From Promethearchaeota archaeon (GTDB lineage Archaea; Asgardarchaeota; Heimdallarchaeia; Hodarchaeales; Hodarchaeaceae), in assembly GCA_048938105.1 (NCBI GenBank), contig JBHLMN010000019.1, forward strand, positions 1 to 64,000: a stretch of DNA of 64,000 nt, in the 5' to 3' direction. Each line of letters begins with the position of its first letter. The first letter of the stretch is position 1. The notes under the pieces were generated by a model, which had not been told where the DNA came from, did not search any database, and saw nothing but the letters and a program-made list of their open reading frames with translations. Below are positions 9,312 through 16,160 of this stretch, piece after piece. Made by a program: the position numbers and the translations under genes.

Positions 9312-10184
9312 ATGTTAGATAAACAGACTGAAAAACTTGTATTACTTGCTCAAAAAAATGAAATCACAGAATATCACATTTATAATAAGCTAGCGAAGGC
9401 CACTAAAGACCCTCACAACCAAAAAATACTCAACCAAATTGCTGAGGATGAGTTAAAGCATTATACTTTTTGGAAAAAATATACTCAAAGGGAAGTAATA
9501 CCAAGTCGAAGAAGGTGGTTTTATTACATTATTGCGAGAATATTTGGTTTAACTTTTGGTATTCGACTTATGGAGCTTGGCGAAGGACAAGCTCAAGCTT
9601 TTTATTCAATTATTACCAAAATTATTCCTGAAGCACAGTTTGTCATCGAAGATGAAGAAGCTCATGAAAAGGAGCTCATAAATCTCATCGATGAAGAATT
9701 ATTAGATTATGTTGGATCTATTGTCCTGGGTTTAAACGATGCATTAGTCGAATTAACTGGTGCGTTAGCTGGATTGACCTTAGCCTTTCAGAACACTCAA
9801 TTAATAGCTCTAGCAGGTTTAATTACAGGAATTGCTGCCTCTTTTTCTATGGCAGCCTCAGAATATTTAGCAACAAAAGAAGAAGGAACTTCGAAAACTC
9901 CTACTAAAGCGGCAATATACACTGGGGCTGCTTACATCTTCACTGTCATCCTTCTGATTCTACCTTATTTAGTCTTCAGTAATCTTAATCCTCTTGTTTG
10001 TCTAGCGATTACCCTTATCAATGCAATTCTCATAGTTTTTGTATTTACCTTCTACATTTCCGTTGCAAAGGATCTTTCATTCAAGAAAAGGTTTTCTGAA
10101 ATCGTCGGAATCAGTTTAGGAGTAGCTGGCTTAACTTTCATAATTGGATTAGTTGTACGATCAGTCTTGAATATTGACATATGA
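9312..10184 (+). CDS. Rubrerythrin/ferritin-like domain fused to VIT1/CCC1 iron transporter (MbfA-like)
   Basis: DELKH and DEEAH ExxH motifs; SIVLGLNDALVE and SFSMAASEYL VIT1 motifs; C-terminal TM helices. Confidence 0.9.
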   Translation: MLDKQTEKLVLLAQKNEITEYHIYNKLAKATKDPHNQKILNQIAEDELKHYTFWKKYTQREVIPSRRRWFYYIIARIFGLTFGIRLMELGEGQAQAFYSIITKIIPEAQFVIEDEEAHEKELINLIDEELLDYVGSIVLGLNDALVELTGALAGLTLAFQNTQLIALAGLITGIAASFSMAASEYLATKEEGTSKTPTKAAIYTGAAYIFTVILLILPYLVFSNLNPLVCLAITLINAILIVFVFTFYISVAKDLSFKKRFSEIVGISLGVAGLTFIIGLVVRSVLNIDI

Positions 10185-10293: not shown

Positions 10294-11796
10294 ATGAAGA
10301 TATCGAAATATTTTTGTTGGTATATTATTGGTTTCATTCTCTTTTTAATTATTACACCAGTAATAGGAATCAGGGGTAACACTAATACTGTCAATGATTA
10401 TTATTTCTCTGTTCCAGAGGAAATAGTGGAAGTGAGTATCAATGTAGATGGATCTGCTGATATTGAGTACTGGATTACATTTGTAGTAGAAGAAGGAGGC
10501 GATCCAATTGATATTGTGGATATTGGTTTTCCCAACAAGCATTACAAACTGGGAAGTATAGTAGCAGATGTAGATGGGACGCCAGTGACAGATATTCAGG
10601 TTTCAGAGGTGATAGATATTGGTATTGAGATTCATTTGCATGGTTCCACGATTACAGATACTGGAGTATTACATGTTAAGGGAAATCAACCGTACATGAT
10701 ATTTGAAGATACAGAAGAAGAAGATATGGCTTCTGTAGAATTTGGAAATACATGGTGGAGTTCTGATTATACTACTGGTACTACAAACCTGACAACTCGA
10801 ATTATATTTCCCACAACTGTAGATGAAACAATATATACCAAGTATCATTATTCCAATAAGCCTGATCGGGAATATTTTTTACTTAATGGACGTAAAGTTT
10901 TCGAGTGGAATGAGGAATCCGCTCTTCCCTCAAGACAATATAAATTTGGAGTTTCCTTTCCTAAAGAAGGCGTAAAATGGCACACGAGTATTCCTCCCAC
11001 CACTGAGGAACTTCTAATTATTGTGGGAATCGTTAGTATAATATTAATTGCCATTGTGGTTGCTGTTGTAAGTTTTGTAAGGAAACGTCGCCGCTTGATG
11101 GATTATGTTCCTCCTTTTGTTTCAGTTCCAACTGCTGGGCCTAGAACGGATCTCCGTAGAGAGGAAGTAGCTATTGTTTTGGAAAAACCCGTCCATGTCA
11201 CAATTTCCATGATTATTCTTACATTAATTCAAAAGGGCTTATTAAAACAGTTTTCGTCAGAAAGTCCTCTCTTCGAGCCCGTCAAAGGTGCCTCAAAAAA
11301 ACATCTTCGAAAATACGAGCGAATAGTTCTGAAATCCATTCGTACAGACCTCAGCATCGATGAGGACAATCTAGTGAAAGCAGTATCCAGCTTAGTTAAA
11401 TCCACTCAGCGTAGGATTCGAGGATATTCGTATGAAAGAACTGTGGATTATTATGAAAGATTAATTAGGGATTCTATAGATGAAATCAAATCAAAATCCG
11501 ATCCACGAGATGTTTCAACAGAAGCTTGGTTTTGGGCCATTCTGGATGAGGAATTCTTGCCTGATTTAGAAGTGCAAATAACAGAACGTGCGGAGTATTA
11601 TGATTATTACCCCTGGTATTATCATTATGGTTACCATCGATGGCATTGGATCCCTCGTGGCGGATCATTCACCCGTCGTGTGACAAAAATCAGTCATCCT
11701 ATCCCGCAAGGAAGTGGTAGAGGTTCGAGAGGAGGCGGAGGCTGTGCTTGTGCCTGTACTGGCTGCGCTTGTGCCTGTGCTGGAGGTGGACGTTAA
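10294..11796 (+). CDS. DUF2207-like membrane protein with C-terminal six-cysteine tail (GGGGCACACTGCACACAGGGR)
   Basis: N-terminal signal/TM, acidic beta-rich ectodomain (VSINVDGSADIEYWITF), TM followed by RKRRR, cytoplasmic domain, Tyr/Trp/His-rich patch, Gly linker, Cys tail. Confidence 0.8.
   Translation: MKISKYFCWYIIGFILFLIITPVIGIRGNTNTVNDYYFSVPEEIVEVSINVDGSADIEYWITFVVEEGGDPIDIVDIGFPNKHYKLGSIVADVDGTPVTDIQVSEVIDIGIEIHLHGSTITDTGVLHVKGNQPYMIFEDTEEEDMASVEFGNTWWSSDYTTGTTNLTTRIIFPTTVDETIYTKYHYSNKPDREYFLLNGRKVFEWNEESALPSRQYKFGVSFPKEGVKWHTSIPPTTEELLIIVGIVSIILIAIVVAVVSFVRKRRRLMDYVPPFVSVPTAGPRTDLRREEVAIVLEKPVHVTISMIILTLIQKGLLKQFSSESPLFEPVKGASKKHLRKYERIVLKSIRTDLSIDEDNLVKAVSSLVKSTQRRIRGYSYERTVDYYERLIRDSIDEIKSKSDPRDVSTEAWFWAILDEEFLPDLEVQITERAEYYDYYPWYYHYGYHRWHWIPRGGSFTRRVTKISHPIPQGSGRGSRGGGGCACACTGCACACAGGGR
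11740..11781 (+). repeat. 21-nt tandem duplication encoding GCACAC(T/A)
   Basis: GGCTGTGCTTGTGCCTGTACT followed by GGCTGCGCTTGTGCCTGTGCT. Confidence 0.85.
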
Positions 11797-13122
11797 ATGA
11801 AACGTCTAGACAAAGCTAAACTCGTACATTTAAGAGAAGGGGAGGATGGAGATATTCGATTACATCTACGTCGTCAAGGAGATGGTGCACTCCTAATTAT
11901 CAACGCTTCAAGAATATTAAACCTTAACTCTACAGCAACATTCTTTGTGGAAAGGATTTTGAAGGGTAAGACAGACTCAGAGATTATTAAGGAGCTTAAA
12001 GGTCTTTATCGTGTCAGTGATCAACAAGCGAATCAAGATCTTCAATCACTGAAAGAGATGATTCATACATTATCTACAACAGATGACATATGTCCAATTC
12101 ATTCCCTGCAGATGGAAGAATCAAATTTAACGGAACTACAATTAACAGCTCCTTTACGAATGGATTTAGCTATCACTTACCATTGTAATAATAACTGTGA
12201 ACACTGCTATAATCAACCAGAATCTCAAAATGCAACTGAATTAGATACAAACACCTGGAAGGCCATTCTAGAACGACTTTGGGAGATTTCTATTCCTCAT
12301 GTGACCTTCACGGGAGGTGAACCCACGTTACGCTCCGATTTATCTGATTTAATCGACTATGCAGAGAATATTGGAATAGTTACTGGGCTCATCACTAATG
12401 GTCGAAATTTAAAAGATGCTAACTATGTAAACAGTCTAGTAAATAACGGATTAGATCATATTCAGATTACATTCGAAAGTGTAGATGAAAGGATTCACAA
12501 CCAAATGGTGGGGAATGACAAAGCGTGGAAAGAAACGGTTGAAGGAATAAAAAATGCCATAGATACTCCCATATACACCCTAACGAACACCACACTGACT
12601 CGCTTGAATACCCCCAAGATTGAAGAAACCATAGAGTTCCTTAATAGCCTTGATGTAGAACAATTTGCCTGTAACTCAATTATATATGCAGGAAAAGGGA
12701 AAAATGTTTCCAAGATAGCCTTTACAGAGAATGAATTGATTCCCATTCTCGAGTCAATTCAGGATGTAGCAGATGAATGTGGTATGCAGTTTATTTGGTA
12801 CACACCCACTCGCTACTGCGAACTTGATCCGAACAACCTAGGGCTAGGAGTAAAGAGATGCTCTGCATCCCAATTAGCAATGGCCATTGAACCAAATGGA
12901 ACCGTTATCCCATGCCAAAGTTATTATGAAGGATTGGGGAATATTCTGCATGATAGTTGGGACAGTATCTGGAACCATCCTCTATCACAGGAGCTACGGA
13001 CTCATGCAAACGTCCCTGATGAGTGTCAAAAATGTAATCAACTTGATCTCTGTGGTGGTGGTTGCCCTCTGAGCTTCTATCGTGAGGAATATATATGTCC
13101 CGAGAGTCAGGCCAACGATTAA
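11797..13122 (+). CDS. Radical SAM/SPASM protein with N-terminal PqqD/RRE-like domain
   Basis: LNSTATFFVERILKGKTDSEIIKELKGLYRVSDQQANQDL (PqqD-like); CNNNCEHC; FTGGEP; SPASM CSAS...IEPNGTVIPC...CQKCNQLDLCGGGC. ATG directly follows the upstream TAA. Confidence 0.9.
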   Translation: MKRLDKAKLVHLREGEDGDIRLHLRRQGDGALLIINASRILNLNSTATFFVERILKGKTDSEIIKELKGLYRVSDQQANQDLQSLKEMIHTLSTTDDICPIHSLQMEESNLTELQLTAPLRMDLAITYHCNNNCEHCYNQPESQNATELDTNTWKAILERLWEISIPHVTFTGGEPTLRSDLSDLIDYAENIGIVTGLITNGRNLKDANYVNSLVNNGLDHIQITFESVDERIHNQMVGNDKAWKETVEGIKNAIDTPIYTLTNTTLTRLNTPKIEETIEFLNSLDVEQFACNSIIYAGKGKNVSKIAFTENELIPILESIQDVADECGMQFIWYTPTRYCELDPNNLGLGVKRCSASQLAMAIEPNGTVIPCQSYYEGLGNILHDSWDSIWNHPLSQELRTHANVPDECQKCNQLDLCGGGCPLSFYREEYICPESQAND

Positions 13123-13886
13123 ACCTGAAGGATCAAATTTATTCTGAAGAAGATGCTCAATATTTCAACGAACTGTATGAGGATCAACTGGAATGGACCA
13201 TAACAACGAGAAAGCGGTTATATCGAAAAATGAATTTGTTTCACGCACAACAGGTTCTTGAAGTGGGTTCAGGAACGGGTGCAATACTAAGAGAAATACA
13301 GATACTAAACACAAAAGCCAATCTTGTGGGACTCGATTGGAATTTGATTGCATTAGATTATTCAAAGAGAGAGTCAATTAATCCAAGCATTGTTTGTGGA
13401 AGAGGGGAATTTTTACCTTTTTCATCAAACAGTTTTGATATTACTCTGTGTCATTATTTCATAATGTGGCTAAAAGAGCCCTTTACAGTATTAAAAGAAA
13501 TGAAACGAGTTACACGTATTGGAGGTTGGATAGCCTGTTTAGCTGAACCCGATTATGGAGGACGTTTGGATTATCCAGCCAGTGAGCTCTGGAAAGAGCT
13601 CCTTATCGAGTCATTGTCTGCTCCTGATCCCCTCATTGGACGAAAATTACGAGCACTCTTCTCTAAAGTTGAACTTGAAGCAGAAATAGGTCTTCAGACA
13701 GCTGTCCTATCCTCAGATGTTGTGATGGACTTATATAAAGCTGAAATTAAGAATTTAACACGATTCCTTTCAGAGAAAAACGATGATAATCTAAAAAAAC
13801 TAAAGAACATACTTGAAACACACCCCCCAACTGAGTTGTTTTCATTTATGCCAGTATTTTTTGCTATAGCTAGAAAAAATAGGTAA
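13095..13886 (+). CDS. Class I SAM-dependent methyltransferase (UbiE/Methyltransf_11-like); exact start uncertain
   Basis: VLEVGSGTG, GLD, LPFSSNSFD, LKEMKRVTRIGG; overlaps the 3' end of the radical SAM gene. Confidence 0.85.
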   Translation: MSRESGQRLNLKDQIYSEEDAQYFNELYEDQLEWTITTRKRLYRKMNLFHAQQVLEVGSGTGAILREIQILNTKANLVGLDWNLIALDYSKRESINPSIVCGRGEFLPFSSNSFDITLCHYFIMWLKEPFTVLKEMKRVTRIGGWIACLAEPDYGGRLDYPASELWKELLIESLSAPDPLIGRKLRALFSKVELEAEIGLQTAVLSSDVVMDLYKAEIKNLTRFLSEKNDDNLKKLKNILETHPPTELFSFMPVFFAIARKNR

Positions 13887-13892
13887 AGTGCT

Positions 13893-14135
13893 TTATTCCT
13901 TCTCTTCACGGCCCAGTAATCTTAAATCTAGCAATTGATTAACAACACATCTTCGAACGAATTCAGAATAATTATCAGCTATTCCTAACTCAATAGCTTT
14001 TTTAATAGAATCATAAAGTGGATCTGAAACCCTTAATAAAATTGTTTTAGCCTTCTCTTTTCTTTTAATATGAGCTTCCCCCTTTTGATTAGATTTATCT
14101 GACTTTTGAGGTCTTGACATATCAATACCATTCAT
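13893..14135 (-). CDS. Ribbon-helix-helix (CopG/MetJ-like) DNA-binding protein
   Basis: KTILLRVSDPLYDSIKKAIELGIADNYSEFVRRCV strand-helix-helix pattern. Confidence 0.7.
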   Translation of the reverse strand: MNGIDMSRPQKSDKSNQKGEAHIKRKEKAKTILLRVSDPLYDSIKKAIELGIADNYSEFVRRCVVNQLLDLRLLGREEKE

Positions 14136-14969: not shown

Positions 14970-16160
14970 TTAATTAATGGTTAATATTTCAAATGGTTTA
15001 GATCCTTCTTTTATATTCATTAATCGGTTCTTAGTCACGCTGATAGCATATTTTGAAGAATCTCCTCCCATCCATCGTCTATTTAATTTTTCTGCTACTG
15101 ACAAAGTGGTACCCGATCCACAGAAAAAGTCAGCTACAAGATCCCCTTCATTGGAAGTCATTCGAATGATTCTTTCCAGTAAAGCTTCAGGTTTTTGTGT
15201 TGGGTACCCAATTCTTTCCTTCTCATTTGAGGTAAGAGCTTGGATATCAGTCCAGAGGTTCCCAATTTTTCTTCCTAGATATTCATCTGCATAACGTTTA
15301 TATCTTGGCCTTCCTTTTCCCGTCCAATAAATAAGGTGAGGGTTTTTTGCTAATCTTTTATCAAAAGTTTCTTGGGTCCAACGCCACCCTATTTTGGTTG
15401 TAACTTCTCTACCATTAATTATTCTTTTCTCTCCAATACTATAAGCATTCGAGCTCTGTTCAAGTTTTTCGTGTGTAAATTTTCGTCCTGTTTCCTTCTC
15501 TATATAGGGGAATTTTTCTTTTATTTCTTTCTCTGTCAATGCTTGGTACTGTTGGTGATATACATAATCAGCTGTTTTACTGTACCAAAGGATAACATCC
15601 GTCATTACATCCAATGTCGAAGATAAATGGTGTCCTGGTGTTCGCTGCCAAATGATATCAGCTCTGAAGTTTTCATAACTAAAAATTTCATCTAGTATTA
15701 CTTTGATATAATGTACTGTATGCCAGTCTAGATGAACAAAGATTGAACCTTTGTCAGCTAAAAGTTCTGCCATCAATACTAATCTTTGGTACATGAAATT
15801 CAAATAAGCTTCTAGACCCCTTACTCCCCAAATATCCTTGAATCCATTTTCCATATTATTTAAAGAATGCCTTGTTGGATTTTTTTGAGTTTTTCCACTC
15901 TTGCTACTAGGTTTGAATGTTGTTCCTGATGCAAAAGGTGGATCGATGTAGATAACATTGATTTTTCCTGCAAATTCTCTTAGAAGAGAAGCAATAACGA
16001 GTTTGTTTTCCCCTAATATGAGTTTATTACTCCAGCTTTCTGATGATTTAATAGTATTTATAGATTCAACAACTTCAAGTGAGTGAGGTTTTTCAATACC
16101 TACCCCTTTTGCTTCAGATTTACCCCGCCAAATGAGTTGACATTTCTTAATTACTGTCAT
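14970..16160 (-). CDS. Beta-class site-specific DNA adenine methyltransferase (Type III Mod-like), no adjacent Res gene
   Basis: IYIDPPF precedes YPTQKPEALLERII and ADFFCGSGTT. Confidence 0.9.
   Translation of the reverse strand: MTVIKKCQLIWRGKSEAKGVGIEKPHSLEVVESINTIKSSESWSNKLILGENKLVIASLLREFAGKINVIYIDPPFASGTTFKPSSKSGKTQKNPTRHSLNNMENGFKDIWGVRGLEAYLNFMYQRLVLMAELLADKGSIFVHLDWHTVHYIKVILDEIFSYENFRADIIWQRTPGHHLSSTLDVMTDVILWYSKTADYVYHQQYQALTEKEIKEKFPYIEKETGRKFTHEKLEQSSNAYSIGEKRIINGREVTTKIGWRWTQETFDKRLAKNPHLIYWTGKGRPRYKRYADEYLGRKIGNLWTDIQALTSNEKERIGYPTQKPEALLERIIRMTSNEGDLVADFFCGSGTTLSVAEKLNRRWMGGDSSKYAISVTKNRLMNIKEGSKPFEILTIN

What the first reader, a model, noticed from the sequence alone, without database searches (positions are those of the whole stretch)
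10294..13886. Candidate RiPP-like system whose substrate is the six-Cys tail of a membrane protein
Seen: a 500-aa membrane protein ends in a Gly linker plus (GCACAC[T/A])x2-GGGR on the predicted cytoplasmic side. Its TAA abuts the ATG of an RRE/PqqD-radical SAM-SPASM gene, which overlaps a SAM methyltransferase. I found no separate short precursor ORF in the operon. Known: RRE-SPASM enzymes (ranthipeptide/sactipeptide maturases such as CteB and PapB) bind peptide substrates and form Cys-carbon thioether crosslinks. Inference: the enzyme crosslinks the tail of a full-size transmembrane protein, possibly followed by methylation, creating a modified membrane sensor or a releasable peptide. The upstream YYDYYPWYYHYGYHRWHW patch is a candidate RRE-binding leader or alternative substrate.
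Basis: partly seen in the sequence, partly recalled or inferred. Interest (0 to 1): 0.88.

Follow-up and report, generated by a model that had tools for sequence, protein, structure and literature searches.

The report
Radical-SAM partner of Cys-Ala-tailed membrane protein
An Asgard archaeon carries a three-gene unit, shared with many anaerobic bacteria, in which a 500-residue membrane protein ending in an unchanging cysteine-alanine tail is followed by a peptide-modifying radical-SAM enzyme and a methyltransferase. This points to an undescribed, untested enzyme-made modification on a whole membrane protein rather than on a short peptide.

Summary
A 500-aa two-helix membrane protein (10294-11796) ends in a Gly linker plus CACACTGCACACAGGGR. 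Its TAA abuts the ATG of a PqqD/RRE-radical SAM-SPASM gene (11797-13122), which overlaps a class I methyltransferase gene (13095-13886) by 28 nt.

The tail occurs once in the 5.85-Mb genome. Across relatives that share only about 30% identity it is almost invariant as protein, while every synonymous codon is used. The enzyme gene lay directly downstream in 60 of 73 judgeable loci from Asgard archaea and about ten bacterial phyla. Five of five genomes without a linked enzyme carry it elsewhere. In 200 Asgard genomes, all 40 with the membrane protein have the enzyme. The two protein trees share 33 of 58 splits. Only these three genes are conserved between Asgard loci, and no small Cys-rich ORF exists.

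Best reading (0.57): the enzyme modifies the cytoplasmic tail of the full-size protein, most likely through Cys thioether links. No chemistry is shown. The main rival is a metal or Fe-S site.

The aromatic patch proposed as leader is specific to this clade. A motif 14 residues before the tail is the better candidate.

Neither protein reaches any curated family cut-off, and no paper I searched mentions the tail. This scan had already noted the same system on other genomes.

The parts
10294..11796 (+). Gene 1: 500-aa membrane protein with the Cys-Ala tail. It has no Pfam or NCBIfam family and is only distantly DUF2207-like.
   Evidence: ORF. No family at E<=0.01. More than 2200 homologues. 530 representative clusters found with a tail-less query.
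10405..10962 (+). Extracytoplasmic beta-sandwich domain (residues 38-223).
   Evidence: AF2 model, pLDDT mostly above 90. Foldseek matches chain E of human OST-A (8pn9_E, E 7e-9) and the N-terminal domain of M1 aminopeptidases.
11002..11091 (+). Transmembrane helix (residues 237-266), followed by RKRRR.
   Evidence: Hydropathy. AF2 helix 237-266.
11158..11694 (+). Cytoplasmic winged-helix-like and helical domain (residues 289-467).
   Evidence: AF2 secondary structure H-H-E-E followed by helices, pLDDT 79-92.
11596..11649 (+). Aromatic patch YYDYYPWYYHYGYHRWHW (residues 435-452). It is specific to this clade and is not a family-wide leader.
   Evidence: In alignment A1 only P440 and W441 are nearly invariant. 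Bacterial homologues have other sequence here.
11665..11706 (+). Pre-tail motif SFTRRVTKISHPIP (residues 458-471), the candidate recognition sequence for the RRE (inference).
   Evidence: F459 and P469 are invariant in A1. The motif is present in about 70% of 226 tail proteins, a median of 14 aa before the first Cys.
11707..11742 (+). Gly/Ser/Arg linker (residues 472-483).
   Evidence: The 12 residues before the tail are 76% Gly or Ser across 226 homologues. Disordered in the AF2 model.
11743..11793 (+). Tail CACACTGCACACAGGGR (residues 484-500): six Cys alternating with Ala (one Thr here), then GGGR and the stop.
   Evidence: The last 10 residues are identical in 80 of 80 loci, with 80 distinct DNA sequences.
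11797..13122 (+). Gene 2: PqqD/RRE-radical SAM-SPASM enzyme, 441 aa.
   Evidence: Pfam. AF2 pLDDT 81.7, pTM 0.85. Foldseek top hits are SkfB, SuiB, PqqE and CteB.
11821..12078 (+). N-terminal RRE-like domain (residues 9-94: four strands, then three helices).
   Evidence: PqqD at 28.2 bits, above the cut-off of 23.4. PqqD found in 26 of 28 orthologues. AF2 elements E9-43 and H45-94.
12184..12207 (+). CxxxCxxC motif (C130, C134, C137), followed by the invariant Y138.
   Evidence: Invariant columns in A2.
12817..13098 (+). SPASM region with Cys 341, 355, 373, 410, 413, 419 and 423 (all invariant) plus C434.
   Evidence: A2 invariant columns. Pfam SPASM, 41.6 bits.
13095..13886 (+). Gene 3: class I SAM methyltransferase, 263 aa.
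   Evidence: Methyltransf_11, 62.3 bits. It follows the enzyme in every Asgard locus examined, including those where the membrane-protein gene is unlinked.

Best explanation
The three genes form one unit for maturing the protein's own tail. The membrane protein has an outside beta-sandwich, one TM helix and a cytoplasmic helical domain. It presents a flexible Gly/Ser-linked C-terminal Cys-Ala tail in the cytoplasm.

Proposed steps (all inferred):
1. The radical SAM enzyme docks through its N-terminal RRE, probably on the conserved pre-tail motif at residues 458-471.
2. It threads the tail into its active site.
3. It uses the 5'-deoxyadenosyl radical and two auxiliary SPASM clusters to modify the tail repeatedly.
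4. The methyltransferase then adds one or more methyl groups to an unknown atom.

The most likely chemistry is Cys-sulfur to carbon thioether links onto neighbouring or facing Ala or Gly residues. I put about 0.6 of this reading on that chemistry, which is about 0.35 overall. One possible geometry is a hairpin, as in StsA.

Shown: gene linkage, co-inheritance, co-divergence, enzyme architecture, and protein-level selection on every tail residue. Inferred: binding, the site of attack, and the chemistry.
For: 1. Linkage. In 73 loci with at least 1.5 kb downstream, an orthologue (over 300 bits) lies downstream on the same strand in 60, upstream in 4 and on the other strand in 1. With refined start codons the median gap is 30 nt, and 56 of 59 gaps fall between -4 and +120 nt. 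The loci span Asgard archaea, Chloroflexota, Acidobacteriota, Zixibacteria, Coatesbacteria, Aminicenantes and delta-proteobacteria.

2. Unlinked cases keep the enzyme. Five of five such genomes carry it elsewhere, at 373-498 bits.

3. Phyletic profile in 200 Asgard genomes. The membrane protein is in 40, and all 40 have the enzyme orthologue. Nine more, all from one family with fragmented assemblies, show the enzyme only. Four genomes of the window's own genus lack both.

4. Co-divergence. The enzyme tree and the membrane-protein tree (tail removed) share 33 of 58 splits. These include a cross-phylum clade of delta-proteobacteria with Acidobacteriota.

5. Selection acts on the protein, and on Ala as much as on Cys. 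There are 80 distinct DNA sequences in 80 loci, all synonymous codons are used, and the last 10 residues are identical in 80 of 80. A search with a tail-less query still returns 119 Cys-Ala-type tails among the best 150 representatives. Most of the rest are fragments.

6. Tail variant and enzyme clade vary together. All four (CA)3G(CA)4 tails go with a divergent, upstream enzyme.

7. The enzyme is of the peptide-maturase type. PqqD/RRE is present in 26 of 28 orthologues, with a full SPASM domain. The nearest structures over the full length are SkfB, SuiB, PqqE and CteB.

8. There is no other conserved gene and no small Cys-rich ORF.

9. Precedents read here:
- CrpC installs thioethers on the 28.8-kDa protein CrpA, at motifs that include ACAGM and CAVD (PMC13692751).
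- StsB links Cys2, Cys4 and Cys6 of a CxCxC core to Gly15, Gly13 and Gly11 in a hairpin (PMC10288494).
- QhpD pre-forms three crosslinks in QhpC (PMC7876137).
Against: - No chemistry, binding or expression data exist for any member.
- CxCxC runs are classic metal and Fe-S ligands. Co-inheritance shows a functional link, not that the tail is the substrate.
- Two Heimdall-type loci have (CA)6 with no central Gly, so a Gly-centred hairpin cannot be universal.
- The pre-tail motif is missing, by my pattern, in about 30% of tail proteins.
- In one Asgard family the membrane-protein gene is unlinked from the enzyme-methyltransferase pair.
- The enzyme scores far below the cut-off of every characterised thioether synthase family. 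Its best profile hits are PqqE and NirJ-type enzymes, which do other chemistry.
Confidence: 0.57

Rival explanations
1. The tail is a metal or iron-sulfur binding site, or a redox site, of the membrane protein and is never covalently modified. The radical SAM enzyme is a partner that docks on the protein, which serves as membrane anchor, electron donor or regulator. The enzyme acts on something else, such as a lipid, a quinone-like molecule or an unlinked peptide.
For: - Alternating Cys is a classic metal-ligand pattern (general knowledge).
- The Crp genes are induced on pyrite, and the authors of that paper suspect metal binding (PMC13692751).
- The methyltransferase gives weak UbiE/MenG-type hits of 34-50 bits.
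- An iron-transporter-like rubrerythrin-VIT1 gene sits just upstream here.
- In one Asgard family the enzyme-methyltransferase pair is separate from the membrane-protein gene.
Against: - The Ala, Gly and terminal Arg positions are as invariant as the Cys. A simple metal site does not require that.
- The number of Cys varies from 5 to 8 between clades, which is odd for a defined cluster.
- The enzyme carries a peptide-binding RRE in 26 of 28 orthologues.
- The VIT1 neighbour is kept only in the closest relative.
Confidence: 0.2
2. The enzyme does act on the tail, but the chemistry is not thioether formation. Options include a protein-derived cofactor (as PqqE and MftC make from C-terminal residues), Cys oxidation to formylglycine or dehydroalanine, epimerisation, or C-methylation. 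This probability is part of the 0.57 given to the best explanation.
For: The highest family scores are PqqE (136 bits), NirJ2 (134) and MftC (98), above SkfB (87.5) and StsB (84.5). MftC acts on the extreme C-terminus of its substrate (established knowledge). anSME is also among the structural neighbours.
Against: - All those scores lie far below the family cut-offs.
- StsB is itself closer to MftC than to other sactisynthases, yet it makes thioethers (PMC10288494).
- A core of alternating Cys has so far been found only with thioether synthases (StsA; the CrpA motifs).
- Two of the three alignable catalytic-site proximity positions match SkfB and not PqqE or CteB. Tyr follows CxxxCxxC, and Gln follows the auxiliary-cluster Cys (alignments; CteB residues from PMC10288494).
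Confidence: 0.2
3. The true substrate is a small peptide that was not recognised or is encoded elsewhere. Adjacency to the membrane protein then reflects a different shared function.
For: Short peptides are easily missed. Gaps of 60-120 nt exist in some loci.
Against: - In 22 of 59 loci the gap is 10 nt or less.
- No Cys-rich small ORF exists here.
- Nothing but the three genes is conserved between Asgard loci.
- This reading leaves the invariant tail unexplained.
Confidence: 0.06

Closest known systems
CrpC / CrpA of Methanococcus voltae (PMC13692751, 2026; NCBIfam TIGR04463)
   Same: An RRE-rSAM-SPASM enzyme encoded beside a Cys-rich full-size protein. The Cys lie in the C-terminal part. Thioethers are installed on a protein rather than a peptide, and the modified motifs include ACAGM and CAVD, which resemble the CAG units here.
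   Different: - CrpA is soluble, with ten 17-residue repeats containing C-x-x-Q/D.
- Here the partner is a membrane protein with one short terminal (CA)n block.
- The enzyme is not of that family: 30.8 bits against a cut-off of 525.
- Nothing is shown experimentally here.
StsB / StsA (and BlaB / BlaA) sactipeptides (PMC10288494)
   Same: The core has alternating Cys (CxCxC), linked to residues two apart on the return strand of a hairpin. The enzyme is MftC/PqqE-like by overall similarity, as this one is.
   Different: - StsA is a short peptide with a discrete RRE protein (StsC) and Gly acceptors.
- Here the candidate substrate is 500 aa, the RRE is fused, and the partner residues would be Ala.
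- The StsB model scores 84.5 bits against a cut-off of 625.
QhpD / QhpC of quinohemoprotein amine dehydrogenase (PMC7876137)
   Same: A radical SAM/SPASM enzyme makes several intramolecular Cys thioethers in a protein that stays part of a larger functional assembly.
   Different: - QhpC is a small periplasmic subunit with Cys-to-Asp/Glu links and a quinone cofactor.
- The QhpD model scores 28.3 bits against a cut-off of 453.
- No qhp genes are present here.
SkfB (PDB 6efn), SuiB (5v1q), PqqE (6c8v) and CteB (5why): solved RRE-containing rSAM maturases
   Same: Nearest solved structures by sequence (SkfB 1.9e-17, PqqE 3.2e-17) and by fold over 400-450 columns.
   Different: All act on peptides shorter than about 60 residues. 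Sequence identity is about 20%.
DUF2207 (PF09972 / PF20990) membrane proteins and ribophorin I
   Same: Same layout of an outside beta-sandwich, a TM helix and a cytoplasmic domain. One homologue is named DUF2207 by UniRef. Fold match to chain E of human OST-A, which I recall to be ribophorin I; I did not verify this.
   Different: - The window's protein matches neither HMM.
- One distant homologue gives a sub-threshold DUF2207 hit of 16.7 bits.
- The genome has a separate, true Ribophorin_I match on another contig.

Membership tests
RRE-dependent radical SAM/SPASM peptide (RiPP) maturases (architectural class) | CxxxCxxC radical SAM cluster motif | tested here: met
   C130, C134 and C137 are invariant in 28 orthologues. 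Radical_SAM scores 83.2 bits.
RRE-dependent radical SAM/SPASM peptide (RiPP) maturases (architectural class) | SPASM domain with the seven-Cys pattern for two auxiliary clusters | tested here: met
   C355-x12-G-x4-C373 and C410-xx-C413-x5-C419-x3-C423 are invariant, plus C341 and C434. SPASM scores 41.6 bits.
RRE-dependent radical SAM/SPASM peptide (RiPP) maturases (architectural class) | N-terminal PqqD-like RiPP recognition element | tested here: met
   PqqD scores 28.2 bits against a cut-off of 23.4 and is found in 26 of 28 orthologues. The AF2 model has strands followed by three helices at residues 9-94.
RRE-dependent radical SAM/SPASM peptide (RiPP) maturases (architectural class) | A short precursor peptide (leader plus core) encoded in the cluster | tested here: not met
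   No small Cys-rich ORF. Gene gaps have a median of 30 nt. Only three genes are conserved. The candidate substrate is a 500-aa membrane protein.
RRE-dependent radical SAM/SPASM peptide (RiPP) maturases (architectural class) | Enzyme shown to modify its substrate | not testable with these tools
   Needs co-expression or in vitro assay with mass spectrometry.
Sactisynthases (SkfB TIGR04403, StsB NF045574, AlbA NF012164) | Score over the family's curated cut-off | tested here: not met
   87.5 against 300, 84.5 against 625, and 77.6 against 850 bits.
Sactisynthases (SkfB TIGR04403, StsB NF045574, AlbA NF012164) | [quoted passage not shown] | tested here: inconclusive
   Only three of the six positions could be placed from the alignments. 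Tyr after the cluster motif and Gln after the auxiliary-cluster Cys equal SkfB. The reference table is not held.
Ranthisynthases of the SCIFF/CteB family (TIGR03974) | Score over the cut-off; SCIFF peptide nearby | tested here: not met
   39.6 bits against a cut-off of 425. No SCIFF-like ORF.
CrpC family (TIGR04463, rSAM_vs_C_rich) | Score over the cut-off | tested here: not met
   30.8 bits against a cut-off of 525.
CrpC family (TIGR04463, rSAM_vs_C_rich) | Large Cys-rich protein encoded next to the enzyme | tested here: met
   A 500-aa protein with a six-Cys tail lies directly upstream.
QhpD (TIGR03906) | Score over the cut-off | tested here: not met
   28.3 bits against a cut-off of 453.
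PqqE (TIGR02109) | Score over the cut-off | tested here: not met
   136.2 bits against a cut-off of 381. It is the best hit but lies far below the cut-off.
DUF2207 (PF09972) | Match to the Pfam model | tested here: not met
   No hit for the window's protein even at E<=10, and none in the genome search.
Ribophorin I (PF04597) | Match to the Pfam model | tested here: not met
   The only match in the genome is on contig C18, not this gene. The similarity is at fold level only.

The most novel reading that the evidence does not exclude
The enzyme stitches the tail into a compact thioether ladder. In the (CA)3-G-(CA)3 form, a hairpin centred on the middle Gly puts each of the six Cys opposite an Ala (a Thr at one place here). 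The result would be a rigid, possibly methyl-capped, protease-proof or metal- or redox-active knob at the cytoplasmic end of a receptor-like membrane protein. This would be a new kind of enzyme-made protein modification, shared by Asgard archaea and about ten or more bacterial phyla.
Probability: 0.15. Interest if true: 0.88.

Novelty: new variant of a known kind. Interest (0 to 1): 0.74.

Why it matters
Radical SAM thioether chemistry is known almost only from short secreted peptides. The proven cases on proteins are QhpC and, since 2026, CrpA.

This pair would extend the chemistry to the cytoplasmic tail of an integral membrane protein. Its 17-residue core is kept unchanged between archaea and bacteria. 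That level of constraint suggests an important but unknown structure or cofactor.

The system is directly testable. The tail is a single tryptic peptide, the enzyme is of a well-handled type, and cultured carriers exist (Bellilinea caldifistulae, Thermoanaerobaculum aquaticum). It would also give a first functional handle on a large family of uncharacterised, distantly DUF2207-like membrane proteins.

Tried and rejected
- **Complex prediction**. I folded the enzyme alignment with three 4Fe-4S clusters, SAM and residues 430-500 of the membrane protein. The verdict was no answer (score 0.18, mark 0.32). It counts neither for nor against binding.
- **Sequencing runs** for expression evidence.
- **Catalytic-site proximity table** of Precord et al. 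No supplementary file is held, so only three of the six positions could be compared.
- **Literature.** Searches for the tail letters, for DUF2207 with radical SAM, and for rSAM/SPASM with membrane protein tail all found nothing.
- **Sorting signal.** A C-terminal signal of the PGF-CTERM or PEP-CTERM type is rejected. There is no terminal hydrophobic helix, and the tail lies on the cytoplasmic side.
- **DNA-level repeat** as the cause of conservation. Rejected, because there are 80 different DNA sequences for one peptide.
- **Iron-transporter neighbour** (rubrerythrin-VIT1) as part of the unit. Rejected, because it is kept only in the closest relative.
- **Promoter and terminator scans.** Uninformative, at shuffle level and using bacterial consensus.

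Full report
**What is there.** The window is contig C31 of a 5.85-Mb Asgard (Hodarchaeales-type) genome. It carries three co-oriented genes:
- 10294-11796: a 500-aa protein.
- 11797-13122: a 441-aa protein.
- 13095-13886: a 263-aa protein.

The DNA reads ...CGT TAA ATG... at 11791-11799, so genes 1 and 2 abut. Genes 2 and 3 overlap by 28 nt.

Gene 1 ends GGGG-CACACT-G-CACACA-GGGR. Gene 2 has PqqD (28.2 bits, cut-off 23.4), Radical_SAM and SPASM domains. Gene 3 is a Methyltransf_11 enzyme. Gene 1 has no Pfam or NCBIfam family.

**The membrane protein.** Hydropathy shows an N-terminal anchor and a single TM helix followed by RKRRR. An AF2 model (mean pLDDT 82.5) gives four parts:
- An outside beta-sandwich, residues 38-223.
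- A TM helix, residues 237-266.
- A cytoplasmic winged-helix-like plus helical domain, residues 289-467.
- A disordered end, residues 473-500.

The tail is therefore on the same side as a cytoplasmic, oxygen-sensitive enzyme. Foldseek finds the same overall layout in chain E of human oligosaccharyltransferase, and finds the sandwich in the N-domain of M1 aminopeptidases. The Ribophorin_I and DUF2207 models do not match this gene. The family is at best distantly DUF2207-like.

**The tail is a family character under protein-level selection.**
- CACAC occurs once in all six frames of the genome.
- Of 120 listed homologues, 118 end in (CA)n-G-(CA)3-GGGR. The other two look truncated.
- That search and the locus scan used words from the tail. 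I therefore repeated the search with residues 30-440 only, against 1.84 billion cluster representatives. It gave 530 hits. Among the best 150, 114 have the canonical tail and 5 have variant CxCxC tails. Most of the remainder are evident fragments that end inside conserved domains.
- In 80 loci the 17 codons give 80 different DNA sequences using all synonymous codons. The last ten residues are identical in all 80.
- Ala, Gly and the terminal Arg are as fixed as Cys. The N-terminal half varies in length, from (CA)2 to (CA)5. Two Heimdall-type loci have (CA)6 without the central Gly.

**The link to the enzyme.**
- *Adjacency.* Among 73 loci with enough downstream DNA, an orthologue (over 300 bits; identity to the window's enzyme 43-91% among the orthologues aligned) lies downstream in 60, upstream in 4 and on the other strand in 1. 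One further locus has it broken by a frameshift. With refined starts the median gap is 30 nt.
- *Breadth.* The loci come from Asgard archaea and about ten bacterial phyla. They include the cultured Bellilinea caldifistulae and a genome assigned to Thermoanaerobaculum aquaticum.
- *Unlinked cases.* Five of five genomes without a linked enzyme have it elsewhere.
- *Phyletic profile.* In 200 Asgard genomes the membrane protein is found in 40, and all 40 have the orthologue. Nine more have the enzyme only. All nine belong to one family, in which the membrane-protein gene is unlinked and, where found, is cut off at a contig end. Four congeners of the window's genome lack both. Related genomes are not independent, so I give counts and no statistic.
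- *Co-divergence.* The enzyme tree and the membrane-protein tree (tail removed) share 33 of 58 splits, including a clade that mixes delta-proteobacteria and Acidobacteriota. The pair therefore moves as a unit. Both trees are FastTree trees. In both, the Asgard sequences form one clade. In the drawn, midpoint-rooted enzyme tree that clade lies among bacterial ones. The root is not known.
- *Conserved unit.* Between Asgard loci only the three genes are conserved, and the flanks differ.
- *Co-variation.* All four (CA)3G(CA)4 tails go with a divergent enzyme placed upstream.

**The enzyme.** Twenty-eight orthologues keep CxxxCxxC-Y, the full SPASM cysteine pattern, and an N-terminal domain with the invariant H23, L24, R25 and A37 and the nearly invariant L43, N44 and T46.
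- PqqD is detected in 26 of 28.
- The AF2 model (pLDDT 81.7, pTM 0.85) shows strands followed by three helices at residues 9-94.
- The nearest solved structures over 400-450 columns are SkfB, SuiB, PqqE and CteB.
- No curated family claims it. Scores against cut-offs in bits: PqqE 136/381, MftC 98/265, SkfB 87.5/300, StsB 84.5/625, AlbA 77.6/850; SCIFF maturase 39.6/425; QhpD 28.3/453; CrpC family 30.8/525.

The enzyme thus sits nearer the PqqE/MftC/StsB/SkfB region of SPASM enzymes than the CteB/QhpD/CrpC region. This is a weak hint towards sactionine-type rather than ranthionine-type chemistry.

Two of the three catalytic-site proximity positions that I could place match SkfB rather than PqqE or CteB. 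They are Tyr after the cluster motif and Gln after the auxiliary-cluster Cys (PMC10288494).

**How it most likely works.**
1. The RRE holds the membrane protein near its C-terminus.
2. The Gly/Ser linker lets the tail reach the active site.
3. The enzyme modifies the tail several times.
4. The methyltransferase acts afterwards.

The motif F..V..(T/S)(N/H)PxP has an invariant F459 and P469 and is found in about 70% of 226 tail proteins, a median of 14 residues before the first Cys. It is a reasonable but unproven leader equivalent.

For the chemistry, the closest precedents I read are:
- StsB, which links Cys2/4/6 of a CxCxC core to Gly15/13/11 in a hairpin (PMC10288494).
- CrpC, which installs thioethers on the 28.8-kDa protein CrpA at motifs such as ACAGM and CAVD (PMC13692751).
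- QhpD, which does so on QhpC (PMC7876137).

In the (CA)3-G-(CA)3 tail, a hairpin centred on the Gly would place every Cys opposite an Ala. This is my inference, and the Gly-less (CA)6 variant argues against it as a general rule.

**Rivals.**
- The tail may be a metal or Fe-S site, with the enzyme as a docked partner that has another substrate (0.20).
- The enzyme may act on the tail with other chemistry, such as cofactor formation in the manner of PqqE or MftC (0.20, counted within the 0.57).
- An unseen small precursor is unlikely (0.06).

Co-inheritance cannot separate the first rival from the best reading. The invariance of the non-Cys residues, the variable Cys number and the fused RRE favour the substrate reading.

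**Novelty.** I found no paper with the tail letters or with this pairing, and no curated model for either protein. Radical SAM thioether formation on whole proteins has precedents, so I class this as a new variant of a known kind, on a membrane protein and with a new core.

This scan had already noted the same system on other genomes. Those notes gave me the CrpC, StsB and QhpD leads. I checked the leads by reading the papers and by scoring the family models. Their counts are not used as evidence here.

**Limits.**
- Nothing here is experimental.
- The complex prediction gave no answer.
- No RNA data could be obtained.
- The trees are quick FastTree trees.
- Locus sampling began from tail-containing patterns, although the tail-less search agrees with it.

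Noticed in passing
window 9312-10184 (+): A fusion of a rubrerythrin/ferritin-like domain with a VIT1 iron-transporter domain (MbfA-like) lies directly upstream on the same strand. It is kept next to the cassette only in the closest relative (L003), so it is probably not part of the unit.
   Followed up: partly
window 13893-14135 (-): An 80-aa ORF lies just after the methyltransferase on the other strand. It has no Pfam family and looks like a small ribbon-helix-helix-type regulator. It is conserved in L003 only.
   Followed up: partly
window 14970-16160 (-): An N6/N4 DNA methyltransferase (PF01555, E 2e-44) lies next to the cassette.
   Followed up: no
G000 contig C18:50502-51224 (-): The genome has a true Ribophorin_I (PF04597) match at 48.5 bits (cut-off 25) in a 691-aa frame. 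This is a eukaryote-type oligosaccharyltransferase subunit homologue, separate from the tail protein that shares its fold layout.
   Followed up: no
G000 contig C42:214823-217398 (+): A second radical SAM/SPASM gene gives the genome's best hits to the QhpD and SCIFF-maturase models (97 and 85 bits). It is followed by a 436-aa protein that looks like a sulfatase. This is probably an anaerobic sulfatase-maturase pair, another enzyme of this class that acts on a whole protein.
   Followed up: partly
L083-L088 (Asgard family f16): In this family the enzyme-methyltransferase pair stands alone. The membrane-protein gene lies on another contig. In the two genomes I fetched (L084, L086) the gene runs off the contig end at its 3' end, and two further matches also sit at contig ends. 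Assemblies seem to break at or just after the tail-coding stretch.
   Followed up: partly
L035, L038, L043, L044, L046, L052, L053, L060, L063, L067, L068, L071, L080 and others: Many Anaerolineae loci carry a second, divergent radical SAM paralogue (150-210 bits) after the first, often followed by the methyltransferase. The bacterial unit is therefore often four genes long.
   Followed up: no
P0246, P0247, P0248, P0254, P0210: Variant tails exist in the same protein family. They include three Cys-Ala/Val blocks separated by Ser/Asn or Val-Ser, and endings GGGVGK, GGGA or GGGGGR instead of GGGR.
   Followed up: no
L041 and L057: Two loci from long-read MAGs have lost the tail through what looks like a frameshift near the 3' end of the membrane-protein gene. 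The enzyme gene is 360-550 nt downstream. These are likely sequencing errors rather than biology.
   Followed up: no
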